Shown in pieces: positions 4,902-20,475 of a stretch of DNA of 64,000 nucleotides. Origin of the DNA: Escherichia coli (GTDB taxonomy: Bacteria; Pseudomonadota; Gammaproteobacteria; Enterobacterales; Enterobacteriaceae); the NCBI RefSeq assembly GCF_003790525.1, contig NZ_CP033635.1. One strand, 5' to 3'. Under the pieces are notes generated by a model that was given only the letters and a program-made list of their open reading frames with translations, was not told the origin of the DNA and ran no database searches. A program made the position numbers and the translations under genes. The first letter of the stretch is position 1, and each line of letters opens with the position of its first letter.

Positions 4902-6483
4902 GTGGTGTTGTCTCCTCTTCCGGCCTGCGACTCGCCGCTATCTGCTGCTGATACGCCTGCGCTATCCACACCGGACGTGAGAGTCCGGCTTTTTCCCGCT
5001 CTGCAGATTCCCTGACCTGCTGGCGGAAAATGTCCTGATAATCCTCACCCATCAGCGCCAGCTCTTTCTCATACGTGCTCAGTCCGGCCTCAATGCGCAT
5101 CACCGATTCCTGGACCTCCTTGAGCCCGTCAATGGCCATTCTTCCGGCTCCAATCCACTCTGCCCGTGACCAGGATGAACGCGCCTGATAAAAATCAAAA
5201 CGCGCCCGTGGCGGACGAATAATCCCCCGCAGAAGAGCCTCTTCCAGCCAGCAGGAAAACATCTGCGTGGCCAGCCGGGCCGCAATAAATTTTCGCCGCC
5301 CCATAAAATAGCGCCACGACTCATTGGCGGAGGCGCGGGCACTTGAATAACTGACCTTCGAGTAATCACGGGACAACTGTTCGTAGGAAACGCCAAGACC
5401 GGCGGCGATATACCGCAGCAGCGCCTGTTCAAGCGCAGAAAATCCATTGTCTGAATCCTGCGCAGTCTGTAGTTTCAGATCATCACCGGGGAAAAGGTGC
5501 GGAATTTTGACACCGCCCAGTGTCACGTTATTCGTGTCATACCAGCTGGAGAACTTCTCCAGAATATTAATAAGCGGATTATCCTTCTGCCCCTGCGGCG
5601 CACCGGCGATATATTCAAAGGCCTTTTCGGTATCAAGTTCACTTTCAATCGTCGCTGCATACATCGCCTTCACTATGGCTGACTGAAGCTGTGTTGCCTG
5701 CAGGGAATCGAGCATTTTCAGCCGTTCCATGACGCTGTAAAACTGATTAGCCCCACGGGTCTGCCCGTCCTCAACCGGCTCGAAAATATGCAGCATGGCC
5801 GGACGCCCGGTGGGAAGTTCACGCGGGATCCGTTCCCATCGTCCACTACCAGAGAGCGGAAAATCATCCTCACAGATATGGTACGCAACGGCCCGTCCAT
5901 GCCGATCGACCTCCACCCCGGCCCGCAGAAAGCGGTTCCCCAAACCGTATCCTGGCGTGTCCACCCGTTTCGGACTCACGGCTTTAAAACGCGTACGAAA
6001 CAGCTGCGTAGTCTCCGCATCCCAGACCGGCTGCACAAAGATTTCGCCGTTAAACGCATGAACGCCCACGCCTTCCCGGATAAATTCCGTGAACGTGCGT
6101 TTTCCTTCCACGTCGATCTCGCCAGACATCCCTTCGGCGTATTCCGACCAGGCCGCCTCCACCTCATCGACAAAGCTTTTTGCTGCGGTCTCCCGCATCC
6201 CCAGCCAGCGCCAGTTCGGACGGTAGCTGATCAGAAACATATGCCCGACTATGTGATCCTTATGCAGGGCCACCGCATTAGCCGCTATTCCGTTATTGCG
6301 CACCAGATCATCTGCCCGGGCATTCCCCAGACGCAACGCGGGGAGCAGGGCCGCATCGACACTCTGCGCCGGTGGCAACCACTCCGCCATTTGCCCGCCA
6401 AATCCTGCGCCGCCCCCGTTGTAGCTGAGACTCTCACGAAGCGGAACGCCGTTCACATCAATCAGGACAGGCGTTCTTTTCAT
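4891..6483 (-). CDS. B: Phage portal protein B
   Basis: 530 aa; size, position (between W and C) and sequence consistent with lambda gpB portal. Confidence 0.9.
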   Translation of the reverse strand: MKRTPVLIDVNGVPLRESLSYNGGGAGFGGQMAEWLPPAQSVDAALLPALRLGNARADDLVRNNGIAANAVALHKDHIVGHMFLISYRPNWRWLGMRETAAKSFVDEVEAAWSEYAEGMSGEIDVEGKRTFTEFIREGVGVHAFNGEIFVQPVWDAETTQLFRTRFKAVSPKRVDTPGYGLGNRFLRAGVEVDRHGRAVAYHICEDDFPLSGSGRWERIPRELPTGRPAMLHIFEPVEDGQTRGANQFYSVMERLKMLDSLQATQLQSAIVKAMYAATIESELDTEKAFEYIAGAPQGQKDNPLINILEKFSSWYDTNNVTLGGVKIPHLFPGDDLKLQTAQDSDNGFSALEQALLRYIAAGLGVSYEQLSRDYSKVSYSSARASANESWRYFMGRRKFIAARLATQMFSCWLEEALLRGIIRPPRARFDFYQARSSWSRAEWIGAGRMAIDGLKEVQESVMRIEAGLSTYEKELALMGEDYQDIFRQQVRESAEREKAGLSRPVWIAQAYQQQIAASRRPEEETTPRET

Positions 6484-6686
6484 AACCTCACTCCCAGCGG
6501 ACGACGGCGACGTCGGGTTGTCCCCAGTACCGACTCCGCATCATTGATCGCCCGGTTAAGCTCATCCAGAGAAGCCGCCGTATATTCAATTCTGCGACCA
6601 TCTTTCTGGACAGACACCACCCGTTTACCGGTTAATAAATCAAGGCGCGCCTGACGCAGCGCCTGCAGTTCAGCGACTGTAACCAT
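6480..6686 (-). CDS. W: Phage head-tail joining protein W
   Basis: 68 aa MVTVAELQALRQARLDLLTGKRVVSVQKDGRRIEYTAASLDELNRAINDAESVLG..., lambda gpW-like; 4-nt overlap with B. Confidence 0.85.
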   Translation of the reverse strand: MVTVAELQALRQARLDLLTGKRVVSVQKDGRRIEYTAASLDELNRAINDAESVLGTTRRRRRPLGVRL

Positions 6687-8598
6687 TCACTCCTCCGGAC
6701 AGCTTCGCTGCCAGTTCTTTAAGGGTTGGCCGGGTCGTCTCTTCTTCCCGGGATTTTGCCAGTACAGCCAGATCAAGCTGCCAGCGTTGCACGGACACAC
6801 GTAATGCCGCGTAGGCATACACCAGGCAGTCCAGCGCTTCGTTACGCCGCTTTTTGTTATCCCACAGCAGACGCATCTTTCCTTTTTCCCACTTCTCCAC
6901 AAGCTCTTCCGCGACCAGTTGCTGCGCCTCTGTCTGCGAAAAAATCTCCGGATCATCAGGAAAACGAATGGCATACGACGTGGATTCATCCGCAGGCGTG
7001 GGAGCGGCTTTCATACGGGCATAGAGAATTTCTTTTGCGGTGTCCGTGCCCACTTCACACAGATACACGCCCCGCTGATTGCGGGTTTTTGGCATGGTGA
7101 TCACCGGCTTGCCATAGACAGATGCGCCTTTTACCGGCAACACCCGGAAAACACCGTGTTTTTTTGACCTCTGATAAACGATTTCTCCATCGATCCCCCC
7201 GATGTCCCAGCAGACACGGGAAATGGTCATTTCGGTTCCGTCTGCATGGCGGTATTTTTTGTTGATCGCCGCATCCACACGTAACAGCGTCTCTTCCTCA
7301 TCGGGACGTCCCATAATGATGATTTTATCCACCAGAAAGGCTTCCTCTCCCGGAGCCCATCCCCAGACATACATCTCAAAACGGTTTCGCTGCGAGTCAA
7401 TGCCCGCCGTCAGATAAACCACCCGGGCAGGCACCGCCGCCGTGTAACGCACAACCTTATCCATCAGTACCTGGTGATCGAGTTTTTCGCCCACGGCCTC
7501 TTCCCAGGTCTCGCCCAGCGTGGTGTTCACAAAGGTTTTCAGGCCGTTGGGATCTTTCAGTGCATCCAGCCAGTCATAGACAATCTGTACCCAGGTGGTG
7601 AACGGACTGTACGCCGTCCAGATATGGAAAGTGATGGAGCGCGGCGGCGGAATTTCATTATCCGCGGCGCTGAAAAACATCAGGCCGTCACGGGTCCACA
7701 TGCCCGTGTTTTCACAGATCCACCGCCCGTTACTCTGGTCAAGCTCAGACTGATGGATCACACAGCCATGATGCTCACAAAGGTAGAAAACGCTTTCGGG
7801 GCTGTCCTTCTCCCATTTAAGGCCAAAAGGCGTGGATTCATCGCCAAATTTCAGATACTGCTCCTCCCCACAGTGCGGGCAGGGCACATAAAAACGCATG
7901 AAATGTGCCGACTCGTTAGCGGCTTTTTCGATCTGGCAGGAGCCTTTGATTTTAGGCGTCGAGCCGCGAATGGATTTTGGCCATACAGAGCCCTCAATAC
8001 GCTTATCCCCCAGCAGGGTTGGCGAGCCCTCTTTTTCAACATCCGGTTCGAACGAGGAAAGCTCGTCATAGCAGACCACGTCCACGGATTTTTCACGGTA
8101 GTTTTTTGCTGCCGCACCACCCAGGCACCAGAAGCCCACACCCGATGAAAAGCGTTTCAGCGTGAGAGTATTGTCACGATGTTTACGCCCCAGCCATGGA
8201 GAAAGGTCTTTCAGGCATGGCACATCCCGAATCGTCGCCTCCACGTGAGACTTCATAAAATCTTCAGCGGCAGAATCCGTGGGCTGAAAAAGCAGACTGT
8301 TTCGGGATTTATGCTCAATAAAATACCCGACCACCCCCAGCAACATCTTTGTATAACCAATACGGGCAGATTTAATCAGGTTAACAGTGCGAATCAGATC
8401 GTTGCCCATACAGTTCATGATGGCGATCTGGAACGGCAGCGTTTTCCATTCTCCCTCACCATATGAAGATTCTTTAGGCAGATAATAATTTTGATCAGCC
8501 CATTCAACTGGCGTCACCGGCAATGCCCTTATCAGGGGCTGTAATGCTGTTGTGACAGCACTCATCATATTATTCAGTTGTTGCTCTGATATATTCAT
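6670..8598 (-). CDS. A: Terminase large subunit A
   Basis: Long ORF with lambda gpA blocks (WADQNYYLPKESSYGEGEWKTLPFQ, KRFSSGVGFWCLGGAAAKNYREKSVDV, FMRFYVPCPHCGEEQYLKFGD, FHIWTAYSPFTTWVQIV); start placed at MNISEQQ (ORF track start 8655 is upstream in frame). Confidence 0.9.
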   Translation of the reverse strand: MNISEQQLNNMMSAVTTALQPLIRALPVTPVEWADQNYYLPKESSYGEGEWKTLPFQIAIMNCMGNDLIRTVNLIKSARIGYTKMLLGVVGYFIEHKSRNSLLFQPTDSAAEDFMKSHVEATIRDVPCLKDLSPWLGRKHRDNTLTLKRFSSGVGFWCLGGAAAKNYREKSVDVVCYDELSSFEPDVEKEGSPTLLGDKRIEGSVWPKSIRGSTPKIKGSCQIEKAANESAHFMRFYVPCPHCGEEQYLKFGDESTPFGLKWEKDSPESVFYLCEHHGCVIHQSELDQSNGRWICENTGMWTRDGLMFFSAADNEIPPPRSITFHIWTAYSPFTTWVQIVYDWLDALKDPNGLKTFVNTTLGETWEEAVGEKLDHQVLMDKVVRYTAAVPARVVYLTAGIDSQRNRFEMYVWGWAPGEEAFLVDKIIIMGRPDEEETLLRVDAAINKKYRHADGTEMTISRVCWDIGGIDGEIVYQRSKKHGVFRVLPVKGASVYGKPVITMPKTRNQRGVYLCEVGTDTAKEILYARMKAAPTPADESTSYAIRFPDDPEIFSQTEAQQLVAEELVEKWEKGKMRLLWDNKKRRNEALDCLVYAYAALRVSVQRWQLDLAVLAKSREEETTRPTLKELAAKLSGGVNGYSR

Positions 8599-9079
8599 CG
8601 AGTAAATCCGGTAATTTATCCCCTGCCCGCGCACACTGATTTGCCCCCTTCGCAATAAGGGTTTTCAGATGGTCAAGATGGCGCGGTGTTAAATCAGGAA
8701 ACTGTCGTTGCATGGATAAAGGGATGGAATCAAGCGTACTGGATAACGCCATTGCCAGCTTGCTGAGGGCAAAAATACAGAACCCGGTGTCAATAAGTTT
8801 TCCTTTTGACACCTCATTTTTTAACTGCTGTGTAACAGCCTGTTCTGCTGTCAGTTCCCATCTGGCAATAAGCAATTTCTCCTCATAGTCGTCTTCGCTA
8901 TCGCCATCAGGCACATCGTTTTTACTTCTTCTCAGATACGATATGTAAAAATCACGCCAGGCATCCAGATCCAGTTGCCCTCGCTTATTCGATATCGGGG
9001 CACCCGGCAATTTCTGCAGTCTGCGAAGCTGGCGATCGGTCAGACTCAAATGCCTGGCAACTTCAGTCTGCGTAGCCAC
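8570..9079 (-). CDS. Nu1: Terminase small subunit (Nu1-like)
   Basis: 169 aa; N-terminal HTH-like MATQTEVARHLSLTDRQLRRLQKLPG; immediately between cos and A; C-terminal region resembles lambda Nu1. Confidence 0.8.
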   Translation of the reverse strand: MATQTEVARHLSLTDRQLRRLQKLPGAPISNKRGQLDLDAWRDFYISYLRRSKNDVPDGDSEDDYEEKLLIARWELTAEQAVTQQLKNEVSKGKLIDTGFCIFALSKLAMALSSTLDSIPLSMQRQFPDLTPRHLDHLKTLIAKGANQCARAGDKLPDLLDEYIRATTE

Positions 9080-9149
9080 TGTTCACCTCGCAAAAAATCT
9101 CCCCTCATGCGTTTTAAACATGCATCTTGCGAGCAACTTTATGCAAACG

Positions 9150-9330
9150 CACGCATATGTCCGGTTTGTTTGTACATTTTTTGCACATGTCCGGTTCGCA
9201 GAAAGCATGTTTTTATATTTTTCATATAGTTAACTTGCAGAGAAACCGGACATGGATCCCGGAAAATTTTCATAAATAGCGAAAACGCGCGAGGTCGACG
9301 CCCCGTAACGGGTCCACATGCCGGAAAGGA
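9150..9330 (-). other. cos packaging site (cosN around 9292..9304 plus cosB-like repeat sites toward Nu1)
   Basis: Reverse complement of 9255..9305 reads GGGGCGTCGACCTCGCGCGTTTTCGCTATTTATGAAAATTTTCCGG, almost identical to the lambda cos sequence as remembered (GGGCGGCGACCTCGCGGGTTTTCGCTATTTATGAAAATTTTCCGG); three copies of ATGTCCGGTT (9154..9167, 9184..9198, inverted at 9244..9255) sit between cosN and the Nu1 start like lambda R sites. Confidence 0.65.
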
Positions 9331-9502
9331 CCCGCAAAATGATAATAATTATCATCTACATGTCACAACGTGCATCTACGCCATCAAACCACGTCAAATA
9401 ATAAATTATGACGCAGGTATCGTATTAATTGATCTGCATCAACTTAACGTAAAAACAACTTCAGACAATACAAATCAGCGACACTGAATACGGGGCAACC
9501 TC

Positions 9503-9697
9503 ATGTCAACGAAGAACAGAACCCGCAGAACAACAACCCGCAACATCCGCTTTCCTAACCAAATGATTGAACAAATTAACATCGCTCTTGAGCAAAAAGG
9601 GTCCGGGAATTTCTCAGCCTGGGTCATTGAAGCCTGCCGTCGGAGACTAACGTCAGAAAAGAGAGCATATACATCAATCCAAAGAGATGATGAATAA
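9503..9697 (+). CDS. Small basic hypothetical protein, possible ribbon-helix-helix DNA-binding protein
   Basis: 64 aa ORF between cos and bor; arginine-rich N-terminus then IRFPNQMIEQINIALEQKG, reminiscent of RHH folds. No stronger evidence. Confidence 0.3.
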   Translation: MSTKNRTRRTTTRNIRFPNQMIEQINIALEQKGSGNFSAWVIEACRRRLTSEKRAYTSIQRDDE

Positions 9698-10054
9698 ACA
9701 TCCCGGTTTCTTCCACCATCGCACCGGAAAAGCGACTATGAGGGTAACCCTGCGTCTGTCAGCACAGTAAAACCCGGTGTGCATCGTTTTTGATTATTCC
9801 CGCACACTCGCGCAGAGGAGTTCCCCGTCGGGCTACGGTCATGGTTAATGCGGGAATACGGCGACGATGCAGCGCAGCTAAAAGGGTAATGGACGGATAG
9901 ACCGGTTTATTTCATTCTACAGGATTCTGAGTGTCCCCAACTCCCTCCAATCGTCTGAGCGCCACCTGTGTAGTTTTAATTTTCATCAATCCATTTAACT
10001 ATCGTTTAATTGTTGTCACATAGGATTCTGCCGTTTTTAACAATGCAGGATAAT

Positions 10055-10351
10055 AAGATGAAAAAAATGTTGTTTTCTGCCGCTCTGGCAATGCTTATTA
10101 CAGGATGTGCTCAACAGACGTTTACTGTTGGAAACAAACCTACAGCCGTAACACCAAAGGAAACCATCACCCATCATTTCTTCGTTTCGGGAATTGGGCA
10201 GAAGAAAACTGTCGATGCAGCAAAAATTTGTGGTGGTGCAGAAAATGTGGTTAAAACAGAAACCCAGCAAACATTCGTAAATGGATTGCTCGGTTTCATC
10301 ACTTTTGGCATTTATACTCCGCTGGAAGCGCGGGTGTATTGCTCAAAATAA
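10055..10351 (+). CDS. bor: Bor lipoprotein (serum-resistance / Iss family)
   Basis: MKKMLFSAALAMLITGCAQQTFTVGNKPTAVTPKETITHHFFVSGIGQKKTVDAAKICGGAENVVKTETQQTFVNGLLGFITFGIYTPLEARVYC matches lambda Bor as recalled, including lipobox LITGC; opposite strand to the lysis genes as in lambda. Confidence 0.9.
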   Translation, partial: KMKKMLFSAALAMLITGCAQQTFTVGNKPTAVTPKETITHHFFVSGIGQKKTVDAAKICGGAENVVKTETQQTFVNGLLGFITFGIYTPLEARVYCSK

Positions 10352-10382
10352 TTGCATGAGTTGCCCATTGATATGGGCAGCT

Positions 10383-10859
10383 CTATCTGCACTGCTCATT
10401 AATATACTTCTGGGTTCCTTCCAGTTGCTTCTGCATCGTCATCAACCGTTCTCTGAGGGTGAAATAATCCCGTTCAGCGGTGTCTGCCAGTCGGGGGCTG
10501 GTTGCATTATCCACGCCGGAGGCGGTGGTGGCTTCACGCACTGACTGACAGACTGCTTTGATGTGCAACCGACGACGACCTGCGGCAACATCATCACGCA
10601 GAACATCATTTTCAGCTTTCGCATCAGCTAACTCCTTCGTGTATTTTGCATCGAGCGCAGCAACATCACGCTGACGCTGCTGCATGTCAGCGATGGTGGC
10701 GATCGCCTGCTTCAGCTCACTGACTTTTTTATCGCGCTGCTCTTTGTAAGTGATGGCGTTATCGCGGTAATGATTGACCGCCCACGACAGGCAGACGATG
10801 ATGCAGATAACCAGAGCATAAATAATCGCGGCGACTCTGCTCACTGATCTATTCCCCAA
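10383..10859 (-). CDS. Rz: Spanin inner-membrane subunit Rz
   Basis: 158 aa; [36 protein letters not shown]...[64 protein letters not shown], near-identical to lambda Rz. Confidence 0.9.
10442..10624 (-). CDS. Rz1: Spanin outer-membrane lipoprotein Rz1 (embedded in Rz, +1 frame)
   Basis: 60 aa [60 protein letters not shown]; lipobox VVGC and proline-rich core as in lambda Rz1. Confidence 0.85.
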
Positions 10860-11374
10860 CAGGCTAATGCGCTTTCCTGGTCACGACGAATAACCTGTCC
10901 GTAGCAGTTATTTGAACGTGTGCGGCAATCACGCCCACCGTCCTTAATCCACCAGCGAATCGACTCACAGGCACCTTTACGATCACCGGCATTAAGCCGC
11001 TTATAAAACGTCGACGGGAAACACTTACCGGGGCCAATGTTATAGGGACAGAATGACGCTATACCCGCTTTCTGTGGTTCGGTCAGTGGTACTTTAATAT
11101 TGCGCTCCACCCATGCCAGCGCCTTATCACGCTCAATGGCATTAACCTGAGCGCATTTTTCCTTCGACAGCTTCATTCCCGGTATGACGGGCTTACCATC
11201 CACCATTGTGGCACCACGACAGATGGTCCATATACCGGAACCATCGCGGTATGCCGTTGTGTGGTTACCTTCTTTTTCATCCAGAAACTGGTCGAGAATA
11301 TCAGGCGCAGGCGCACCGACGGCAATCAGTGCCAGAACGGCAGCCGACAGGCCGTATCTGATTTTTGCGTTCAT
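10841..11374 (-). CDS. R: Endolysin R (phage lysozyme, T4-lysozyme-like glycosidase)
   Basis: 177 aa; [22 protein letters not shown]...[15 protein letters not shown]...[16 protein letters not shown]; resembles the R lysozymes of lambdoid/Stx-type phages; overlaps Rz start. Confidence 0.85.
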
Positions 11375-11497
11375 GTATATTTATCAGGATCTAAAGGTTT
11401 ATAACCCTGGATATATCAGGTATATAATCCAGTACCAGCATGTCTCATAAACATACCCGTTCAGGAAAACCAAACGACAACAGATGAGGCTTCAGAA

Positions 11498-11875
11498 ATG
11501 AACAGTAAAGAAAATTTGCGCAGTAGATTTTTGCAACTAATGACAGAAAAAGTTAAATCAGCGCTACTTCCACTTATGGTGGATAATAACGAAGCAACGA
11601 GCAGCATCCTTGCAGACCCTTACGGTAAACTCTCGCATAAAACGCTGGATATTATTATGAGTGCATTAACACCCCGTATGCTTCAACACCTGAAACAAGA
11701 TATTAACGCATGGGTGAATGAAGAATTGAGCCCCCCCTGTTCATGGGACAGACATTATGCATGGCAGCAAAAAATGAGGATTTTCAATTCATTATCACTA
11801 AAGTTCAGAGAACCGAAACAGCGTCCCTTCCCTCTGGAATCAGATAAAAAACAACCTGATCCCACAGGCCCGTAA
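11498..11875 (+). CDS. Hypothetical protein (possible moron between holin and endolysin, opposite strand)
   Basis: 125 aa ORF starting at ATG with upstream purine-rich sequence; no recognisable family. Confidence 0.3.
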   Translation: MNSKENLRSRFLQLMTEKVKSALLPLMVDNNEATSSILADPYGKLSHKTLDIIMSALTPRMLQHLKQDINAWVNEELSPPCSWDRHYAWQQKMRIFNSLSLKFREPKQRPFPLESDKKQPDPTGP

Positions 11876-12031
11876 TATTTTGAATACCGTGATTATTGAT
11901 ATCACAATGAAAGCTATTCCGCACAGTTATGCCCTGCTCCCCACGGGGCATGCCTCATGAAACGTTCCGGGCGTTTCATGTTCCCGGATTTTGTTAAAAG
12001 GTATATTATCCCCTCACTCCCGGGATATTCG

Positions 12032-12304
12032 TCATATTTCTTTTGGTGCCTTTTTCGCAATCTCAGCCACAGCATGTGCCGTAGCCGGAACATTACCGGC
12101 ATTAGTTCGTTCCAGAATTTCGAGCAATATGCGGGTTCGTTTTTCCTGCTCCCGTTTGTTAAGGCGATAAGTAAGAACGCCAAGAATGATACTGAACGCC
12201 ACGCCGATAATAAATCCCCAATCCTGCAGTGACAGGCTGGCAAAGAACGCAACAAGTCCTGCGCTGCCGTATGCAGCGTTACTGTATCGTTCGTCCATTC
12301 TCAT
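12032..12304 (-). CDS. Putative holin (two predicted TM helices)
   Basis: 90 aa; hydrophobic stretches GSAGLVAFFASLSL and GFIIGVAFSIILGVLTY followed by charged tail KREQEKRTR; sits upstream of the endolysin in the late operon. Not lambda-S-like; assignment by position and topology. Confidence 0.4.
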   Translation of the reverse strand: MRMDERYSNAAYGSAGLVAFFASLSLQDWGFIIGVAFSIILGVLTYRLNKREQEKRTRILLEILERTNAGNVPATAHAVAEIAKKAPKEI

Positions 12305-12643
12305 AGTCCCTCACCTCCGCCATCCGACATTACGGACGGCAGCAAGTCAGAATCTCGTTATAAAAAAGCCGCACGAAGAGGCTGTTTGTTCAGGTATTTT
12401 ATCCAGTGCGCCGTAAAACCCCGACCTTCAGGGTGTGGAGGATGTCAACATCAATAACTGACATTCTGCCCAAAGCTCCCGAAGATTCCCTTTGCACAAT
12501 TTCACTGACCGGATCTCAGCACAAGCCACAGGGAATGGTCAGTGTGACGCTCTCTGTGGCCCCTCCTGAAAAGCCCTGTGGTTTAATCGCGACGGACCTG
12601 GCGCGGATATGAAGCAGGCCGTGAGCACGAGCCTGGAAATTTA

Positions 12644-12719
12644 GTGCCGACTACCGGAATTGAAGTGGTGGCCTGATGGTTACAACTAAACTGTTCTGCC
12701 GACTGAGGTAAGTCGGCGC
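12644..12719 (-). ncRNA. tRNA-like element / possible degenerate third phage tRNA
   Basis: Abuts the two tRNAs; perfect 7-bp terminal complementarity (GCCGACT ... AGTCGGC) and a D-loop-like AGTCGG, but I could not fold a convincing cloverleaf or anticodon arm and there is no encoded CCA. Confidence 0.25.
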
Positions 12720-12796
12720 TGGACCGCCACCGGGGACTCGAACCCCGCACAGTCAGCTTAGAAGGCTGATGCTCTCTCCTGATGAGCTAGTAGCGG
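12720..12796 (-). tRNA. argN: tRNA-Arg (anticodon UCU)
   Basis: Minus-strand read CCGCTAC..CTCATCAGGAGAG..CAGCCTTCTAAGCTG..GGGGTTCGAGTCCCCGGTGGCGGTCCA: 7-bp acceptor (one G-U), anticodon loop with UCU, T-loop TTCGAGT, encoded CCA. Confidence 0.8.
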
Positions 12797-12797
12797 T

Positions 12798-12873
12798 TGG
12801 TGGCCCTTGCTGAATTTGAACCAGCGCCCTTGCGATTATGAGTCGCTCGCTCTCACCACTGAGCTAAAGGGCC
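12798..12873 (-). tRNA. ileZ: tRNA with CAU anticodon (Ile2-lysidine type or Met)
   Basis: Minus-strand read GGCCCTTTAGCTCAGTGGTGAGAGCGAGCGACTCATAATCGCAAGGGCGCTGGTTCAAATTCAGCAAGGGCCACCA: canonical cloverleaf, anticodon CAT, encoded CCA; resembles the ileX/ileY-type tRNA carried by lambdoid phages. Confidence 0.8.
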
Positions 12874-13327
12874 TCGAGCAGCATAATAACGTTACGGGAT
12901 TAATACCGCAAATCTCAGAGAAAGCCCGACAAACCCAACTAAGCGCACCTCTTATCTGGTCCGCCAAAGAGCTTAATGTCCGGTGCAGATTTTCGATGTA
13001 AAAAACCGCCTGGCTGCGGGTTTAAGTTGTGTGGCGTAGGAACCACTCTTACCATGATATGCATACTTTTACGATCGTAAAGTGTTTGTTCATACCCTGC
13101 ATGCTGCATGATTCACCCCACATACAATCTCTGGATTGTTGCGACGCTTGGCAAGATGTAATTAAAGATTATGCATTCTTCTATGCACGTATTTTTCTTC
13201 AAAAGCAATGTCTTTATTAAGGTTATATAAATAACTCATAACCCCAAATAATTAAATATATTTAGCACTTCTAATAAAAAAGATTGATCTTAATTTTTTG
13301 AGTGAAAGATAGCCATCTATTTATTAG

Positions 13328-14523
<1,196 letters not shown>

Positions 14524-14671
14524 TTAGCTTGCATGACTTCTTATTTTGTGATAGTGGTCACATATAAAGAATCGGACTCCTTAATTTTCCTTGTATACAT
14601 TATACACAGAAATTAAATTTTCATCCTGATAGCATTTTGTCGTCCAATTAACTCCCACCAGAGGATAAAAA

Positions 14672-15778
14672 ATGAAAAATTTAACAGTGGCACTTTCTGC
14701 TGTAGCAGCATCAGTATTTCTGGCAACGTCTTCAAATGCAGCAGAAATATACAATAAAGATGCAAACAAAGTGGATTTATACGGTAAAGCAGTTGGTTTA
14801 CATTATTTTTCTTCTGATAAGGACCAAAACGGAGATCAGACTTACGCACGCCTTGGATTCAGAGGTGAAACCCAAATAAATAATTATATTACTGGTTTTG
14901 GTCAGTGGGAATATAATTTCCAGGGGAACAACCCTGAAGGGGATGGAGCTCAAACTGGAAACAAGACTCGCCTGGCATACGCTGGTCTGAAGCTTGCAGA
15001 TGCTGGCTCTCTTGACTATGGTCGTAACTACGGCGTGGTGTACGACGCATTAAGCTACACTGACGTCTTCCCGGAGTTTGGACCTACCACAGCGCAAAAG
15101 GATAACTTCTTCGTTGGTCGTGTAGGCGGTGTTGCCACATACCGCAACACTGACTTTTTTGGACTGGTCGATGGGCTTAGCTTTGCAATTCAGTATCTGG
15201 GAAAAAATGAACGCAAGGATAAACCAGATACTTCAAACGGAGAGGGTGTAGGTGGCTCTGTCAGCTATGAATATGAAGGATTTGGTTTTGTCGCAGCATA
15301 CGGCGCTGCTGATCGTACTAAAAATCAGAAAAAGGCTGAGCTTGGTAAAGGGAAAAAAGCTGAACAGTGGGCCACCGGGGTAAAATATGACGCAAATAAT
15401 CTGTACCTGGCTGCCAGTTATGGTGAAACAAATAATACCCGTGCAATATCGTATGGTGATAATATTTCAGGAGTGGCGAATAAAACCGAAGATTTCACTG
15501 TTGTGGCACAATACCAGTTCGACTTTGGATTACGCCCGTCTCTTGCTTATACCCACTCTAAAGCAAAAAACCTTTCATCCAGTACTGATATTAGTAAAAA
15601 ACATGATGACGGATATATTGAAAAATTCGTTGAAGTAGGGGCTTCTTATTACTTCAACAAAAATATGTCTACATACATAGATTACAAAATCAATATGCTC
15701 GATAAAAATAAATTCACTGAAAGAACAGGAGTATCAACCGACGATATTGTCGCTGTTGGTCTGGTTTATCAGTTCTGA
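14672..15778 (+). CDS. Outer-membrane general porin, prophage-encoded (NmpC/Lc/OmpC family)
   Basis: 368 aa; signal peptide then AEIYNKD.NK.DLYGK...; [10 protein letters not shown]; [12 protein letters not shown]; [15 protein letters not shown]; C-terminal [12 protein letters not shown]; typical 16-strand porin signature, closest by memory to the DLP12 nmpC product. Confidence 0.9.
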
Positions 15779-15919
15779 TTTATTCTGTAAGAATATGCCG
15801 GGGGAGTGAGAACTTTTCTGGCATATAAAGTGGTGCCCTCATGCCACTGCAAAACGTTGGACAGTACTTAACTTTTCCAACGAACTTTCTGTTATTTATT
15901 AACCTTTTTGGTTTTTATA

Positions 15920-15948
15920 CTTGGGCGCTTTGCGCCCATTTTTTATTT
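15920..15948 (+). terminator. Rho-independent terminator downstream of the porin gene
   Basis: GGGCGCtttGCGCCC hairpin followed by ATTTTTTATTTTGT on the plus strand. Confidence 0.45.
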
Positions 15949-15956
15949 TGTACGCC

Positions 15957-16379
15957 TTATATCCCTGCCCTGGAGGACACAGTTTTACGACGTATCGAAT
16001 AATTTGTGCTCACATATCGATCCATCTCAAGGCGAACATCCAGCATCATCAACATACCATCAACCACTCCTTCAGCTTTTTGCAAACGCTTTCCAATATG
16101 CGTATCCGAACATCCATGTTTCCTTGCTAACTTCATGAACGTCATCCCATATACGTAGTAATCAACCAGCATGTCATGCATATCGGCGTTGTTCTTTTTC
16201 AGGCGAGCCATACAACCACATATAATCATCGCGTCATCATCGGAACACTGCGATCGCGATTTTACTTTTGACGGTATCAGCCCCTTAAATCCGGCGGCAA
16301 TGCCTGACCATTCCACGTCTTCATGATTATTTGCGACCCATGCCCCCCAACGTTCAAGAACCATCTGAATATCACGCAT
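15957..16379 (-). CDS. Late-gene antiterminator Q (DLP12 QuuD/YbcQ type)
   Basis: 140 aa [64 protein letters not shown]..., resembles the DLP12 prophage Q-like antiterminator as recalled; located upstream of the lysis cassette. Confidence 0.7.
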
Positions 16380-17236
16380 TATTCACACTCCCCAACCAGA
16401 TTGAGGATGACCTCTGCACCATTGTCTTTCATATATTCGCCCTTTCCGCTTGCCAAAAACCAACGACACACCTCCACGGCTTCAGCCCGTGTCACCGGTT
16501 TGATGGTCATCAGCAATTTTTCAAGGTAGCGCTCGCGGTCATATACCGATTCGTGATGCTCAGAGTAACCATACTCATCGCCCTGTTCTTTAGTTGCAGT
16601 GTGGCGAACACTGTAGAGCCAGTCCCAGTAAACAAACTCACGAACTACGTCTGACAATGTATGAGGCTCTGGCAGTACATCACGATAGCCATCAACATAT
16701 GCACGACGCTGATCATCAATTTCATTCATACGGATGCCGTCAATTCTGCCCGCTTTCTTCTCGGCTGCAGTCCAGCCCCAGAGATGATCGTCGATAAATT
16801 TCTGGGAAGACTTGATCACTCGCTCGGCTTCCACATCTTCGAGTGCTGCTTCATAGCTACCAAACGTAGCCCTGACTGATGCTGCTTTTTTGATATTCTC
16901 CCGGGCGATCCTGATTGCCTGTGCCGGGTTATCCATGCCGATGGTACCGAAAGCAATCTGGAAAGGATCGCCACCATTCGCCAGCAGATAACGCGAATAG
17001 CGTTCCTGGGCCTCTTTTGGGGATATTTTAATTTTCACCAGCGCGGCCTCAGCAGCATCCAGATGTGCGGGTTCGTTCAGACGGATAACCTCCAGTACCC
17101 AAAGATAAGCATCAGTCTGCTTATGCCCGGTGATTCTCCGTTGCTCTGGCAGGGGTTTGATGTTTGCGAGGGCGGAGCTGTACGCTGCCGTCGGGATGGT
17201 GAATAGTGCTTTATGTTCGTTGTTATCAGTACGCAT
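16379..17236 (-). CDS. Hypothetical phage protein (285 aa) immediately upstream of Q
   Basis: Clean ORF translationally abutting Q; no recognisable motif. Confidence 0.4.
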
Positions 17237-18204
17237 TACGCAGCCGCCTTTTTCTTATGGAAAACCAGCTCCCGAACCTGATCACCGTTCATGAGCATAT
17301 TGTTGAAATCATCGTGATCCGGCCAGTACACGCTCACGCGCTGCAGGTCATTCTTTGCCATCAGATTGGCATGAGCACATTCGCAAGCCGCAGCCAGCCC
17401 GGTGGCGCTGTTCTCGTCACGGTCGGCAAAAATAATCAGGTGCAGAACACCAGCTGGTACGCGGAACTTTTTCATAAAGCCGCTGTTAATGGTTGCCCAG
17501 GTGTTCACGTTATAAATCTGGTGCGCTGACAGCGCTGTTTCGATGCCTTCGGCGATACCCAGAGTGCTGGCGACAGGAAACATGCGGATAGCTACAGAAC
17601 GAGCGTGATCCAGATAGTTATCTTCCTGCAGGGATTTTAGGCGCTTTGCACTGCTACCGATATCTGCTTTTTTATCACCATCAAGCAGGGTCTGGTGCAG
17701 ATAGCACAGCTCCCCTTTATCGTCCGTAGCAAGTGAATAAAGAGACTGGAACACACTCCCGTTGTGTCTCTGCCTGGCATTGAACCTGATCGCCTCAGCA
17801 GGAAGACTGAATATTCCACGAGAATTAAGATACGCGGCGCCGGATGTACCACGCAGTGCCTCCAGTTTTGAAAACTTGCTCAATACCCGTTTGCGTAAGC
17901 TGGTGGCGCTGCTGGTTACCGGGATTTTAACCCGTTGGTAATTATTACCGATCAGGCGGTCTATTTCGGTACAAATCACGTTAAATGGCTTCGCCTGTGT
18001 CAGGGTGACAAGTTTCATACCATCGCCACTACCACATACACAGATCCACGTTCCTGCACCGTCGCGGTCGTCAATTCGGAACTTGCCACGTGCACCGCAT
18101 ACCGGGCATTCACCCTTAAAGTGATTTTTTCCGGTTATCGGCGGCAGACCGAAGTGCTCTAATATTTCAGGCCAGCGGCCTTTCGCTGCATCTGCTGTTT
18201 TCAT
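17236..18204 (-). CDS. Phage DNA primase (zinc-ribbon + Toprim-type)
   Basis: 322 aa; N-terminal zinc-binding pattern CPVCGARGKFRIDDRDGAGTWICVCGSGDG typical of P4-alpha/DnaG-like primase Zn domains; C-terminal acidic Toprim-like region (IIFADRDENSATG); adjacent to helicase. Confidence 0.65.
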   Translation of the reverse strand: MKTADAAKGRWPEILEHFGLPPITGKNHFKGECPVCGARGKFRIDDRDGAGTWICVCGSGDGMKLVTLTQAKPFNVICTEIDRLIGNNYQRVKIPVTSSATSLRKRVLSKFSKLEALRGTSGAAYLNSRGIFSLPAEAIRFNARQRHNGSVFQSLYSLATDDKGELCYLHQTLLDGDKKADIGSSAKRLKSLQEDNYLDHARSVAIRMFPVASTLGIAEGIETALSAHQIYNVNTWATINSGFMKKFRVPAGVLHLIIFADRDENSATGLAAACECAHANLMAKNDLQRVSVYWPDHDDFNNMLMNGDQVRELVFHKKKAAA

Positions 18205-18205
18205 C

Positions 18206-19864
18206 TTACTGACTCAGACTGTTTATATTTTTCTGGAGTTGTTGCTTTGCCTGCATAATGCGCCAAGCCTCACTTTCTTCCGGTGGAACATACCGGCCAC
18301 CAACAACCAGTGGCAGAGAAAGCACTTCGGATGAGTTTTTCGTCATCCTCCGTGTCCGTTCACGACCTTTAGCAAACCGGATCAGCTTGTGTCTGATGTA
18401 GTTACTTACCTCTGGGCTTATTTCCATCGGGAAACTGCTCAACCCATCAGGCCATTCACCGAATTTCTCCCTGAAAGTGTGAGCGCACCATCCATCACTG
18501 ACTGGACGCCCCAGTGAGGCACGCTGGCGCTGATAAAATTTGATCTGACTCCACCAGGCCTGTTTCTCTGCCTTCGTGGACTGATGCTGATTTTTACCCA
18601 GCTTATTAAGTTTGCGGCTAGTGTCAGTATCAACGTCTTCACCTCGCAGCGGCTTGTGTCCACATTTCGGGCAAACATAGACGCCAGCTGGCTTCATGTA
18701 GTGGCATTGAGGGCATTCATGTGGCAATTTTTCGGCCCGTTCCTCAACTGCGCGGCGCGTGCTTTCCTCCATGCCGTCAGACTTACCGGGAAGATCGTCG
18801 TACTCGATTGAATCCGGATAACCCAGACGGTGCACGGTGCCGCTGTGATCGAAGATAAGGCAGGACGCTTTACCCGGTGCGGTGCGAAGTCCACGCCCGA
18901 GTGCCTGCAACCAGCGAATTTCGCTTTTTGTTGGCCTGGCGTAGATGATGCAACGAACGTCACTATCGAATCCGGCTACCAGAACGCCCACACTAACGAT
19001 GATTTTCGTTGCACCGGTTTCAAAGCGGTGAATGATGGTCTGGCGCTCATCTACCGGAGTGTCGGCGGTCATTACCTCAGCGTTAACACCCGCCAGGTTA
19101 AACTGGATTGTCAGATAATTGGCGTGAGCTACGTTGACGCAGAAAGCGATGGTAGGTAAATCCCGACCATTCTCCAGCCAGTTCTGTACGATGTCGCCCA
19201 CCAGCGTAGAGCCGCACATGATTTCAGCCAGCTGCGTTTCGTTGTAATCCCGGCCGTACTCAAGCGAAGATGTGGTTTTAACACCTTTCAGATCCGGCTT
19301 AGTTGGCGCGTAAAATTCGTATTTACTCAGATCGCCACGCTGGATTAACTCGCCGATGGTGGTCGGCTTAATCAGTCGGTCATAGTATTTGCCCAGGAAC
19401 GGAGAAAACGGAGTACCCGACAGGCCAATCACCTTTACGCCTTTGCCGCGCAGACGTTCGATATCCTTCAGGATGCGTTTTTTACGCAGGTGCGCTTCGT
19501 CGATAATCAGCAGATCGATATTTTCAGGAAAAACACGACGAATAAGCGTGTCAGCGCTGGCAATCTGAATTTTCCGGTCCGGATCGTAGTTCGGGTGATC
19601 CGCCCAGATATAACCGATTTCATCTCCAGGTAAACCATACTGCACGAACCGATTAGCCGTCTGACCAATCAGGATGGTGTACGGAACACAGAACAGAACA
19701 CGCATACCACGGCTGACAAAACCAGCAACTATGAAGGCTGCCAGACCCGTTTTACCGCTACCTGTTGGCGAGTAAACCATGAAGGTGTCGTTTGCCTTCC
19801 AGTCACGGCGCAACATGTTTAGCGCTCGTTCCTGTGCAAAATTCGGCGTGATTGTCAGCTGCAT
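18206..19864 (-). CDS. Superfamily-2 DEAD/DEAH-box helicase (phage replication helicase)
   Basis: 552 aa; Walker A SPTGSGKT, DEAH box LIIDEAH, motif III SGTP, helicase C-terminal QALGRGLR; C-terminal Cys4 zinc ribbon (CPQCH...CPKCG). Confidence 0.8.
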   Translation of the reverse strand: MQLTITPNFAQERALNMLRRDWKANDTFMVYSPTGSGKTGLAAFIVAGFVSRGMRVLFCVPYTILIGQTANRFVQYGLPGDEIGYIWADHPNYDPDRKIQIASADTLIRRVFPENIDLLIIDEAHLRKKRILKDIERLRGKGVKVIGLSGTPFSPFLGKYYDRLIKPTTIGELIQRGDLSKYEFYAPTKPDLKGVKTTSSLEYGRDYNETQLAEIMCGSTLVGDIVQNWLENGRDLPTIAFCVNVAHANYLTIQFNLAGVNAEVMTADTPVDERQTIIHRFETGATKIIVSVGVLVAGFDSDVRCIIYARPTKSEIRWLQALGRGLRTAPGKASCLIFDHSGTVHRLGYPDSIEYDDLPGKSDGMEESTRRAVEERAEKLPHECPQCHYMKPAGVYVCPKCGHKPLRGEDVDTDTSRKLNKLGKNQHQSTKAEKQAWWSQIKFYQRQRASLGRPVSDGWCAHTFREKFGEWPDGLSSFPMEISPEVSNYIRHKLIRFAKGRERTRRMTKNSSEVLSLPLVVGGRYVPPEESEAWRIMQAKQQLQKNINSLSQ

Positions 19865-20475
19865 TGTGCTGCCTCCCCATGGTTCAGCGGGAGGCGCCTG
19901 AAATGGTGACCGCGATGAGACTTTGTTCTTCCAGCAATAACAGCATAAACACTACCGTGATCAAACCCGGCACTAATTAGCGCCTTTTTCCCGCAAAAGG
20001 TTTGCTCTTCCCTGGTCGCAATATTTGTGGCGACAATCAGGCCCTTAAATTGTTTGTTGTTCGCCCCCTGAGAATTATTCAGCCCGGTGTGAATAGAATG
20101 CTGAATGTTTTCGCTATGGCTAACCCACTCCAGATTGGATGCATGGTTATTCAGCTTGTTGCCGTCCTTATGGTTCACTTCAGGGTGGTTGTAAGGGTTG
20201 CTGCAAAAAGCCAGCGCTACCAGACGGTGTACGGCAAAAGTTTGGCGATTACGTTTGTAGCTCAGGTTAACGGTTTTATATCCATCCCGGCGCACTCTTC
20301 CCTTGAGGAACACGCCACGAATTTGGCGAATAAAAAATTCCGATTCAGCAATTCGATTAACCCCACGGATGCGTCCCGCCGAGCTAACGAGGTAAGCATC
20401 ACCATACGGAGCAACAGGAACCGGAAGCCATTTTTCACCATCAAAACTGTTAACCATAAAATCACCTCTGAACAT
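19855..20475 (-). CDS. HNH homing-type endonuclease (NUMOD4/HNH_3-like)
   Basis: 206 aa; GEKWLPVPVAPYGDAYLVSSAGRIR (NUMOD4-like) and HRLVALAF...PEVNHKDGNKLNNHASNLEWVSHSEN (HNH motif). Start may be the internal Met (MVNSFDGEKW). Confidence 0.7.
   Translation of the reverse strand: MFRGDFMVNSFDGEKWLPVPVAPYGDAYLVSSAGRIRGVNRIAESEFFIRQIRGVFLKGRVRRDGYKTVNLSYKRNRQTFAVHRLVALAFCSNPYNHPEVNHKDGNKLNNHASNLEWVSHSENIQHSIHTGLNNSQGANNKQFKGLIVATNIATREEQTFCGKKALISAGFDHGSVYAVIAGRTKSHRGHHFRRLPLNHGEAAQCS

What the first reader, a model, noticed from the sequence alone, without database searches (positions are those of the whole stretch)
14672..15778. Prophage-encoded general porin (NmpC/Lc family) as a lysogenic-conversion moron opposite to the late operon
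An intact 368-aa OmpC-family porin with signal peptide and the C-terminal aromatic motif is carried between Q and the lysis genes on the opposite strand, followed by its own terminator. Phage porins can change outer-membrane permeability, antibiotic susceptibility and phage receptor availability.
Basis: partly seen in the sequence, partly recalled or inferred. Interest (0 to 1): 0.4.

Follow-up and report, generated by a model that had tools for sequence, protein, structure and literature searches.

The report
Rare OmpF-like porin in a prophage
An intact outer-membrane porin gene sits in the usual porin slot of a lambda-like E. coli prophage, but it is a rare chimera with an OmpF-like core, not the common NmpC/Lc type, and an insertion sequence has landed just upstream of its promoter.

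Summary
Window 14672..15778 (+) is an intact 368-aa general porin with a signal peptide, a C-terminal Phe and a downstream intrinsic terminator. It lies between Q (15957..16379, -) and the lysis genes.

The interpretation needs three corrections.

1. It is not an NmpC/Lc-clade porin. Its core (residues 21-300) is OmpF-like: about 70% identical to E. coli OmpF and about 63% to Lc/NmpC. Only the signal peptide and the C-terminal part are NmpC-like. The constriction loop carries PEFGPT in place of the near-universal PEFGGD. The allele is rare: 4 of 5,426 complete E. coli genomes, against 3,140 with a match to an nmpC-type gene.

2. The cassette lies between Q and the late promoter pR' (13081->13054, -). 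It is therefore upstream of the late operon and divergent from it, not inside it.

3. A 1,196-bp ISKpn26 (13328..14523) sits 148 bp upstream of the ATG and 23 bp upstream of a perfect CRP site. It was absent from all 14 related prophage copies examined, and its effect on expression is unknown.

This is a new member of a known kind: lysogenic-conversion porins of lambdoid phages. Interest is modest.

The parts
14672..15778 (+). Porin CDS, 368 aa. Signal peptide is codons 1-23 (14672-14740), mature protein 345 aa, stop codon 15776-15778. OmpF-like core (residues 21-300) with NmpC-like signal peptide and C-terminal part (301-368). L3 tip PEFGPT.
14661..14664 (+). Shine-Dalgarno GAGG, 7 nt before the ATG
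   Evidence: read from the sequence
14547..14562 (+). Perfect CRP consensus TGTGAtagtggTCACA. It starts 125 nt before the ATG, the same position as the CRP-like site of nmpC/lc (-126/-127). Function is inferred.
   Evidence: PnmpC is CRP-activated according to PMC11677980.
13328..14523 (+). ISKpn26 (IS5 family), 1,196 bp, with 16-bp terminal inverted repeats. Its transposase gene has the same orientation as the porin. Its 3' end lies 148 bp from the porin ATG.
   Evidence: Absent from 14 related prophage copies.
13396..14376 (+). IS transposase, 326 aa, intact (DDE_Tnp_1 + DUF772)
13324..13327 (.). Left copy of the 4-bp target-site duplication TTAG (CTAA on the other strand). The right copy is at 14524-14527.
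14524..14527 (.). Right copy of the target-site duplication TTAG
15792..15826 (+). 15-bp stem-loop immediately after the stop codon, with no T-run. One compensatory pair change in the GF60 allele. Probably a 3' mRNA-stabilising hairpin (inferred).
15922..15949 (+). Intrinsic terminator of the porin transcript (TGGGCGC-TTT-GCGCCCA plus T-run). On the - strand the hairpin has no T-run, so it is not a terminator for transcripts coming from Q.
   Evidence: conserved in GF60
15957..16379 (-). Antiterminator Q, 140 aa. Its first 372 nt are 78.8% identical to H-19B Q. The last 17 codons are specific to the cassette.
13054..13081 (-). Late promoter pR' (TTTACG-N16-TATCAT). Identical hexamers lie within the stretch annotated as late promoter in VT1-Sakai. 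It is the only copy in the window.
13000..13046 (-). Early pR' transcript region: a qut-region hairpin (13046->13031) and the tR' intrinsic terminator (13020->13000, CCGCAGCCAGGCGG plus T6). The stem and loop sequences differ between phages but every version can still form the hairpin.
12720..12873 (-). Two phage tRNA genes downstream of tR': anticodon CAT at 12798-12873 and Arg-TCT at 12720-12796
10383..12304 (-). Lysis module of the late operon: holin-like ORF 12032-12304, lysozyme 10841-11374, Rz 10383-10859, Rz1 10442-10624

Best explanation
This is a lysogenic-conversion porin cassette of a complete-looking lambdoid E. coli prophage. It occupies the same slot as nmpC and lc, between the Q gene and the late promoter pR'.

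Shown:
- The gene is intact and encodes a 16-stranded general diffusion porin whose predicted fold superposes on OmpF.
- The protein is a mosaic. It has an NmpC-type signal peptide and C-terminal part (residues 301-368: L7, strands 14-16 and L8) and an OmpF-type core (residues 21-300).
- The constriction residues K16, R42, R82, R132, D113 and E117 are kept. The L3 tip is PEFGPT instead of PEFGGD.
- The lineage evolves under purifying selection.
- The cassette has its own terminator and a perfect CRP site at the position where nmpC/lc has one.
- pR'/tR' lie on the far side of the cassette.

Inferred:
- In a lysogen the gene is transcribed from its own CRP-dependent sigma-70 promoter, independently of Q and the late operon.
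- The product is exported by Sec, folded by BAM through its C-terminal beta-signal, and forms trimeric water-filled pores.
- These pores add to or replace OmpF/OmpC. That changes small-solute and antibiotic permeability and the set of surface loops available to phages and colicins.
- Loss of D121 and a net charge of -5, against -12 for OmpF, predict weaker cation selectivity than OmpF.

In this strain ISKpn26 inserted 23 bp upstream of the CRP site. The core promoter is left attached to the gene. About 230 bp of AT-rich upstream DNA is cut off. Expression may be raised, lowered or unchanged; the sequence cannot decide.
For: Intact ORF and full-length Porin_1 match. Best solved relative is E. 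coli OmpF, 508 bits. AF2 model against OmpF structures gives TM 0.93 and rmsd 2.0 A. Tree placement. Mosaic test: 19/20 informative sites are NmpC-like in residues 1-20 and 301-368, and 51/59 are OmpF-like in residues 21-300; max-chi2 44, p <= 0.003. Pore residues. PEFGP is confined to this clade, against PEFGGD in 117/117 other homologues and 75/78 genome loci. dN/dS is 0.17 for the mature protein against the GF60 allele: 0.10 in the barrel and 0.28 in the loops. Terminator. CRP site, one of two perfect sites in 64 kb where 0.13 are expected, at -125 against -126/-127 in nmpC/lc. PnmpC is CRP-activated (PMC11677980). pR'/tR' homology to the annotated VT1-Sakai unit. Same slot in DLP12, PA-2 and Perceval. 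The identical protein occupies the same slot in 10 further E. coli prophage contigs with three different replication modules. The prophage has capsid, portal, terminase, lysis, Q, replication, repressor and integrase genes.
Against: There are no expression data. The cassette is AT-rich (41.6% GC in the gene, 31% upstream, 50% for the window), so it is a likely H-NS target and may be silent. One of the four carrier genomes in the complete-genome set has a nonsense codon at position 25, and this strain has an IS in the upstream region, so the gene is dispensable and perhaps sometimes counter-selected. IS5-type insertions in the ompK36 promoter or coding sequence lower porin expression in K. pneumoniae (PMC10035640; an IS in the ompK36 promoter, PMC12086927). 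The promoter hexamers were not identified with confidence. The model confidence for the L3 tip is below 50, so the effect of PEFGPT on the pore is not established.
Confidence: 0.75

Rival explanations
1. A bona fide NmpC/Lc-family porin: an ordinary divergent allele of the common prophage porin.
For: Same genomic slot and orientation. NmpC-type signal peptide (70% identical, against 29% for OmpF) and NmpC-type L8/strand 16 (83% against 57%). The flanks align with an nmpC-type cassette at about 65% through Q.
Against: The whole-protein tree puts it outside the 100%-supported NmpC/Lc clade and sister to OmpF. In residues 21-300, 51/59 informative sites are OmpF-like. The L3 segment [11 protein letters not shown]...FFVGRVGG is the OmpF type, not the NmpC type GVAYDIGAWTD...FMTGRTTG. 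The best phage-collection hit is only 60% identical.
Confidence: 0.1
2. A cryptic gene that is silent or disabled in this strain. Either H-NS silences the AT-rich cassette, or the ISKpn26 insertion has cut off upstream activating elements, so the porin contributes nothing to the phenotype.
For: 31% GC upstream and 41.6% GC in the gene. IS insertion 148 bp from the ATG. Precedent: IS5 insertions in or upstream of ompK36 decrease expression. A nonsense allele in LH50-c shows the gene is dispensable. nmpC is itself inactivated by IS5 in K-12.
Against: The IS lies upstream of the CRP site and the whole proximal region, not between promoter and gene. The nmpC promoter region deleted in PMC11677980 spanned positions -199 to -1 before the start codon. 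The coding sequence is intact and under purifying selection. IS5 placed upstream of a promoter often activates it (glpFK, bgl, fucAO, flhDC; PMC11677980). IS5's AT-rich curved 3' region with its IHF site is the end that faces the porin here.
Confidence: 0.3
3. IS-activated porin: ISKpn26 has derepressed or made constitutive an otherwise CRP-dependent, H-NS-repressed gene, as IS5 does at glpFK.
For: The geometry resembles known activating insertions: the IS is upstream of a CRP-dependent promoter, in an AT-rich region, at the canonical CTAA target. The AT-rich curved 3' region of IS5 with its IHF site is the end next to the porin promoter. That this region is what activates glpFK is my recollection of Zhang and Saier 2009, which I did not read here.
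Against: Purely by analogy. ISKpn26 is only 91.5% identical to IS5. The insertion is a single private event, not seen in the 14 related copies examined, so there is no sign of recurrent selection.
Confidence: 0.2
4. A recent capture of the host's own ompF by the phage, through aberrant excision or gene conversion with the chromosomal copy.
For: The core is most similar to OmpF.
Against: Only about 70% identical to E. coli OmpF. GC content is 41.6% against 47.8% for ompF. The ompF 5' UTR and its MicF pairing site are absent (duplex -11 against -27 kcal/mol). The nearest non-prophage relative (P0003, 68%) sits in a 41% GC metagenome genome.
Confidence: 0.03

Closest known systems
NmpC (DLP12 prophage, E. 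coli K-12) and Lc (phage PA-2) lambdoid-phage porins
   Same: Same slot and orientation: convergent with Q, upstream of pR'-S-R-Rz, with Bor further on. Same type of signal peptide and C-terminal segment. A CRP-like site at the same distance from the ATG. Own terminator. An IS5-family element is associated with the locus in both K-12 and this window.
   Different: The mature core (residues 21-300) is OmpF-like, with 60-63% overall identity. The L3 tip is PEFGPT rather than PEFGGD. Very rare: 4 of 5,426 genomes against 3,140. In K-12 the IS5 interrupts the 3' coding end, whereas here the IS lies upstream of the promoter and the CDS is intact.
OmpF, the chromosomal general porin of E. coli and other Enterobacteriaceae
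   Same: Closest sequence and fold (about 70% identity, TM 0.93). Same basic cluster and same D113/E117. OmpF-type L3 helix and strand sequences.
   Different: Scores below the NCBIfam OmpF equivalog cutoff (542 against 583). Different signal peptide. Long OmpC/NmpC-type L8 and a longer L7. G120P and D121T substitutions. R167/R168 replaced by D/T. Net charge -5 against -12. Prophage location. No ompF promoter, UTR or MicF site.
stx and other accessory genes (morons) downstream of Q in H-19B/933W-type phages
   Same: An accessory gene inserted in the Q-to-S interval of a lambdoid phage with a related Q and a related pR'/tR', with phage tRNA genes nearby.
   Different: stx lies downstream of pR'/tR' on the late strand and is Q-dependent. 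The porin lies upstream of pR' on the opposite strand and should be Q-independent and expressed in the lysogen.
OmpK36 L3 variants and IS5 promoter insertions in Klebsiella pneumoniae
   Same: Changes at the PEFGGD tip of L3 (GD/TD insertions) alter pore constriction, and IS5-type insertions in or upstream of the porin gene change its expression. Both features have counterparts here.
   Different: Those are chromosomal mutations selected by carbapenems. Here the L3 tip is a fixed trait of the lineage and the functional consequences are untested.

Membership tests
General bacterial porin family (Pfam Porin_1; OmpF/OmpC/PhoE superfamily) | Full-length match to the family profile above the curated threshold | tested here: met
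   PF00267, 420 bits against a cutoff of 23.7, profile positions 1-337 of 337
General bacterial porin family (Pfam Porin_1; OmpF/OmpC/PhoE superfamily) | 16-stranded beta-barrel with L3 folded into the lumen | tested here: met
   The AF2 model has 16 strands and an L3 helix at 124-130. Foldseek against OmpF structures gives TM 0.93 and rmsd 2.0 A. Model pLDDT is only 73, and below 50 at the L3 tip.
General bacterial porin family (Pfam Porin_1; OmpF/OmpC/PhoE superfamily) | Constriction residues: basic cluster K16/R42/R82/R132 facing acidic L3 residues D113/E117 | tested here: met
   All six are conserved. D121 is replaced by T and G120 by P.
General bacterial porin family (Pfam Porin_1; OmpF/OmpC/PhoE superfamily) | Sec signal peptide and C-terminal beta-signal ending in Phe | tested here: met
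   SP ...SSNA|AEIYNK aligns with the OmpF cleavage site. The C-terminus is VGLVYQF.
General bacterial porin family (Pfam Porin_1; OmpF/OmpC/PhoE superfamily) | Trimeric pore with measurable conductance | not testable with these tools
   The L2 latch residue E71 and its partner R100 are conserved. Biochemistry is needed.
NmpC/Lc clade of lambdoid-phage porins | Groups with NmpC/Lc in a phylogeny of the protein | tested here: not met
   Lies outside the 100%-supported NmpC/Lc clade and is sister to OmpF with 88% support. 60-63% identity.
NmpC/Lc clade of lambdoid-phage porins | Location between Q and the lysis genes of a lambdoid prophage, on the opposite strand | tested here: met
NmpC/Lc clade of lambdoid-phage porins | NmpC-type signal peptide MKKLTVAxSAVAASV... 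and C-terminal KINLLDKN.FT...[14 protein letters not shown] | tested here: met
   70% and 83% identity in these segments, against 29% and 57% for OmpF
NmpC/Lc clade of lambdoid-phage porins | Expressed in lysogens under catabolite (CRP) control and changes the host porin pattern | not testable with these tools
   Only a perfect CRP site at the conserved position
OmpF orthologues (NCBIfam NF007446 equivalog) | Score at or above the curated equivalog cutoff | tested here: not met
   542 bits against a cutoff of 583. Also below the OmpC (463 against 484) and PhoE (418 against 599) cutoffs.
OmpF orthologues (NCBIfam NF007446 equivalog) | Chromosomal ompF regulatory context, judged here by the 5' UTR and its MicF pairing site; genomic location also compared | tested here: not met
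   Prophage location. MicF duplex -11.3 kcal/mol (shuffles -8.3 +/- 2.5) against -27.4 for ompF.
IS5 family insertion sequence (ISKpn26) | About 1.2 kb, 16-bp terminal inverted repeats GGAAGGTGCGAA.AAG, DDE transposase, 4-bp duplication of a CTAA-type target | tested here: met
   1,196 bp. IRs at 13328-13343 and 14508-14523. TSD TTAG (= CTAA). 99.9% identical to copies annotated as ISKpn26.

The most novel reading that the evidence does not exclude
The Q-pR' porin cassette works as a fixed expression-and-export socket: a promoter with a CRP site, an NmpC-type signal peptide, a C-terminal part (L7 to strand 16) and a terminator. Divergent mature porin cores are swapped into it by recombination at the signal-peptide junction. 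Two nested events of this kind are visible here: an OmpF-type core between NmpC-type ends, and type-1 and type-2 alleles with dS 0.8 behind a 99.5%-identical upstream region. The clade-specific PEFGP(T/G) tip of the constriction loop would then give lysogens a pore with different selectivity or antibiotic uptake and a new receptor surface. In this strain ISKpn26 would have switched the pore's expression state.
Probability: 0.2. Interest if true: 0.55.

Novelty: new member of a known kind. Interest (0 to 1): 0.33.

Why it matters
Prophage porins can change outer-membrane permeability, antibiotic susceptibility, stress resistance and phage or colicin receptor availability without any change in the chromosomal ompF or ompC genes. 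Typing schemes that look only at ompF and ompC would miss them. This allele is annotated only as 'porin', or wrongly as 'PhoE', in public records. It carries an unusual substitution exactly where clinically selected OmpK36 variants alter pore constriction. The locus also shows that the porin is placed so as to be expressed independently of the late operon, unlike stx. Finally, insertion sequences known from resistance plasmids (ISKpn26) can rewire such genes. The practical importance depends entirely on whether the gene is expressed.

Tried and rejected
1. Donor search. A scan of one genome per 100,044 species found nothing above 67% identity, and the top hits were ordinary OmpF orthologues. 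No donor was identified.

2. Plasmid carriage. The best plasmid-collection hits were about 69% identical ompF genes, several of them on multi-megabase records. The porin is not plasmid-borne.

3. MicF control. There is no meaningful pairing with the porin's translation-initiation region.

4. Rfam scan of 9000-21000. It found only the two tRNAs, and no known RNA family in the porin flanks.

5. The promoter consensus scan gave no + strand hit upstream of the porin. I looked at TATACA (14601-14606) and TTGTAT-N17-TAAATT (14591-14619) by eye and could not choose between them, so no TSS is claimed.

6. P0004-P0007 (67-69% identical, on 1-3 kb metagenome contigs). P0004 and P0005, which I aligned, look like assembly chimeras of nmpC, ompF and ompC reads. 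All four were ignored.

7. The first tree attempt, with Biopython bootstrapping, timed out. It was redone with a faster implementation.

8. Literature searches for a phage-encoded OmpF-like porin found nothing specific. The classic PA-2/Lc papers are not in the searchable library, so statements about Lc physiology rest on my own knowledge.

Full report
**Observation**

Window 14672..15778 (+) is an uninterrupted ATG-initiated ORF of 368 codons. A GAGG Shine-Dalgarno sequence lies 7 nt upstream. It matches Pfam Porin_1 from end to end (E = 8.8e-126). It has a 23-residue signal peptide ending ...SSNA|AEIYNK and ends in ...VGLVYQF. Downstream there is a 15-bp stem-loop at 15792-15826. A textbook intrinsic terminator follows at 15922-15949 on the + strand. 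The neighbours on the - strand are:
- antiterminator Q, 15957..16379 (PF06530);
- two tRNA genes, 12720-12873;
- a holin-like ORF, a lysozyme, and Rz/Rz1.

Bor lies on the + strand. The window also carries capsid, portal, terminase, replication, repressor and integrase genes, so the prophage looks complete as far as the window reaches.

**Which porin it is**

The tools do not support that.
- Against solved structures the best match is E. coli OmpF (508 bits). OmpC scores about 405.
- Against 50,697 phage records the best hits are only about 60% identical. These are the NmpC/'OmpD'/Lc porins of lambdoid phages, including PA-2 lc.
- NCBIfam ranks OmpF first, but the score is below the equivalog cutoff (542 against 583). 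OmpC and PhoE also fall below their cutoffs.
- In a bootstrapped NJ tree the window protein, a second E. coli prophage allele (strain GF60, 80% identical) and one metagenomic protein (P0003, 68%) form a 100%-supported clade. That clade is sister to the chromosomal OmpF proteins (88%). The NmpC/Lc porins form their own 100%-supported clade elsewhere.

**The protein is a mosaic**

| Segment | Residues | Identity to Lc | Identity to OmpF |
|---|---|---|---|
| Signal peptide | 1-23 | 70% | 29% |
| L8 + strand 16 | 345-368 | 83% | 57% |
| Core segments | 24-300 | 53-68% | 71-81% |

At sites that discriminate the OmpF group from the NmpC group, 19 of 20 sites in residues 1-20 and 301-368 are NmpC-like. 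In residues 21-300, 51 of 59 are OmpF-like (maximum chi-square 44, permutation p <= 0.003).

**A second, nested exchange**

A second exchange appears between the two E. coli alleles. The window and GF60 differ at 3 positions in about 650 bp of upstream DNA plus signal peptide. From nucleotide 14727 (codon 19) onward they differ at roughly one position in four. The mature region has dS = 0.80 and dN/dS = 0.17 (0.10 in the barrel, 0.28 in the surface loops). Both alleles are therefore old, functional and under purifying selection. They were placed behind the same promoter and signal peptide by recombination.

**Pore features**

The AlphaFold model (pLDDT 73) has 16 strands and the L3 helix. It superposes on OmpF structures with TM 0.93 and rmsd 2.0 A. 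The basic cluster (K16, R42, R82, R132, in OmpF numbering), the acidic L3 residues D113 and E117, the L2 latch E71 and the terminal Phe are all conserved.

The tip of L3 differs. It reads PEFGPT (PEFGPG in the GF60 type), where 117 of 117 other retrieved homologues and 75 of 78 loci from other species read PEFGGD. So G120 becomes P and the acidic D121 is lost. R167/R168 at the mouth are D/T. The net charge of the mature protein is -5, against -12 for OmpF.

Insertions at this same position in OmpK36 are reported to constrict the pore (PMC10035640). The substitution is therefore in a sensitive place. The model is unreliable there (pLDDT below 50), so no functional claim can be made.

**Where the cassette sits relative to the late operon**

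The stretch 13091->13000 on the - strand is 78% identical to the sequence that directly follows Q in H-19B, VT1-Sakai and many Stx phages. In VT1-Sakai that sequence is annotated as the late promoter, the Q-utilisation site and the pR' terminator.

The window has the same -35 and -10 hexamers, TTTACG-N16-TATCAT, at 13081->13054. A hairpin followed by T6 lies at 13020->13000. Its stem and loop sequences differ between phages, yet every version can still form the hairpin. It is the only such element in the window.

Homology of the window's Q to H-19B Q stops after ...EMDRYV, 17 codons before the stop. Relative to an H-19B-like arrangement, about 55 bp between the end of Q and pR' have therefore been replaced by a cassette of about 1.7 kb. 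The cassette carries a new Q tail, the terminator, the porin and its regulatory region.

The same pR'-like element lies about 400 bp upstream of lc in PA-2 and of the porin in Perceval. The SRRz promoter of DLP12 has been studied as a unit separate from Q (PMC7918800). This layout is thus general for porin-carrying lambdoid phages.

The consequence is that the porin is convergent with Q and divergent from pR'. It lies outside the Q-dependent late transcript, whereas stx lies inside it. The terminator at 15922-15949 works only in the porin direction. Early transcripts that read through Q would therefore run antisense into the porin gene. This last point is an inference.

**Regulatory signals**

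A perfect CRP consensus, TGTGAtagtggTCACA, lies at 14547-14562. It is one of two in 64 kb, where 0.13 are expected by chance. It starts 125 nt before the ATG. The corresponding CRP-like site of K-12 nmpC, PA-2 lc and Perceval starts at -126 or -127.

The nmpC promoter region that was deleted experimentally spans positions -199 to -1 before the start codon. It is described as activated by CRP and repressed by OmpR, IHF and MprA (PMC11677980). By analogy the porin has its own CRP-dependent promoter. I could not fix the hexamers or the start site. The ompF-specific MicF pairing site is absent.

**The insertion sequence**

Window 13328..14523 is a 1,196-bp IS5-family element with intact inverted repeats and an intact transposase. 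It is flanked by a 4-bp duplication, TTAG, which reads CTAA on the other strand. It is 99.9% identical to plasmid-borne copies annotated as ISKpn26 and 91.5% identical to K-12 IS5.

It is absent from the four complete genomes that carry the porin, and from ten further contigs that encode the identical protein. It is therefore a private, recent event.

It lies 148 bp upstream of the ATG and 23 bp upstream of the CRP site. The transposase reads towards the porin. About 247 bp separate its other end from pR'. It interrupts neither Q, pR' nor the coding sequence.

Precedent points both ways:
- IS5 upstream of glpFK, bgl, fucAO and flhDC activates those operons (PMC11677980).
- IS5-type insertions in the ompK36 promoter or coding sequence lower porin expression (PMC10035640; an IS in the ompK36 promoter in PMC12086927).

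The sequence alone cannot decide which applies here.

**Distribution and origin**

| Measure | This OmpF-like type | nmpC type |
|---|---|---|
| Complete E. coli genomes with a megablast match | 4 of 5,426 | 3,140 of 5,426 |

- In the large protein collection the two allele clusters are all E. coli. They are named only 'porin', or wrongly 'PhoE' or 'OmpF'.
- The exact protein occurs behind the same Q allele, linked to three different replication modules. The Q-porin-pR' block therefore travels as a module.
- One carrier, LH50-c, has a nonsense codon at position 25.
- The gene is 41.6% GC, against 50% for the window and 47.8% for ompF.
- The nearest non-prophage relative, P0003, lies in a 41% GC metagenome genome beside Slam/TbpB-like genes. 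This hints at a low-GC enterobacterial source for the core.

**Verdict**

This is a real, intact prophage-borne general porin in the classical nmpC/lc slot, so the kind is well known. What is new is the member:
- a rare OmpF-core chimera with a distinctive constriction-loop tip;
- a more exact placement, between Q and pR';
- a strain-specific ISKpn26 next to its promoter.

Function as a diffusion pore is well supported by sequence and fold. Expression, pore properties and phenotype are inferred. Interest is modest.

Noticed in passing
window 12720-12796 (-); L001/L003/L014 5249-5325: The second phage tRNA has anticodon TCT (Arg) in the window but TTT (Lys) at the same position in three related prophages. 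The first ~20 nt (5' acceptor stem and D arm) and the last ~15 nt (3' acceptor end) are identical. Changes cluster in the anticodon arm, the variable region and the T arm, as if the anticodon arm had been swapped.
   Followed up: partly
window 13328-14523: The IS is ISKpn26, 99.9% identical to copies on small mcr-4 plasmids and on Shigella and Salmonella plasmids, rather than the chromosomal K-12-type IS5 (91.5%). This suggests it came in from a plasmid.
   Followed up: partly
L001 (E. coli LH50-c) 6001-7107: The same porin allele is a pseudogene there, with GAA to TAA at codon 25. Together with the IS here, two of five carriers examined in detail have lesions at or next to the gene.
   Followed up: partly
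window 11498-11875 (+): A 125-aa ORF with no Pfam or NCBIfam match lies between the endolysin and the holin-like gene, on the strand opposite to the late operon. It is annotated as an incomplete pseudogene in three related prophages and is intact in others. It may be another accessory gene (moron).
   Followed up: no
window 12032-12304 (-): The 90-aa ORF in the holin position gives only sub-threshold hits to holin families (HP1 and P21 type, E about 1e-4, below the gathering scores). TUM1886 has a standard class II holin there instead.
   Followed up: no
window 14883-14911 (-): A strong sigma-70-like match (TTCCCA-N17-TATAAT, 10 of 12) lies antisense inside the porin gene. It may be chance in AT-rich DNA or an antisense promoter.
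   Followed up: no
L016 8001-9152 (metagenome genome GCA_946062945.1): The nearest non-prophage relative of the porin (P0003, 383 aa) has an NmpC-like signal peptide. It sits next to SlipAM (Slam) and TbpB-like genes in a 41% GC genome, not in a prophage.
   Followed up: partly
window 57298-57313 (+): The only other perfect CRP consensus in the window (TGTGATGCAGATCACA), in the chromosomal part.
   Followed up: no
window 10058-10351 (+): A Bor lipoprotein gene, a classical lambda lysogenic-conversion gene, lies on the + strand just beyond Rz, as in DLP12 and Perceval.
   Followed up: partly
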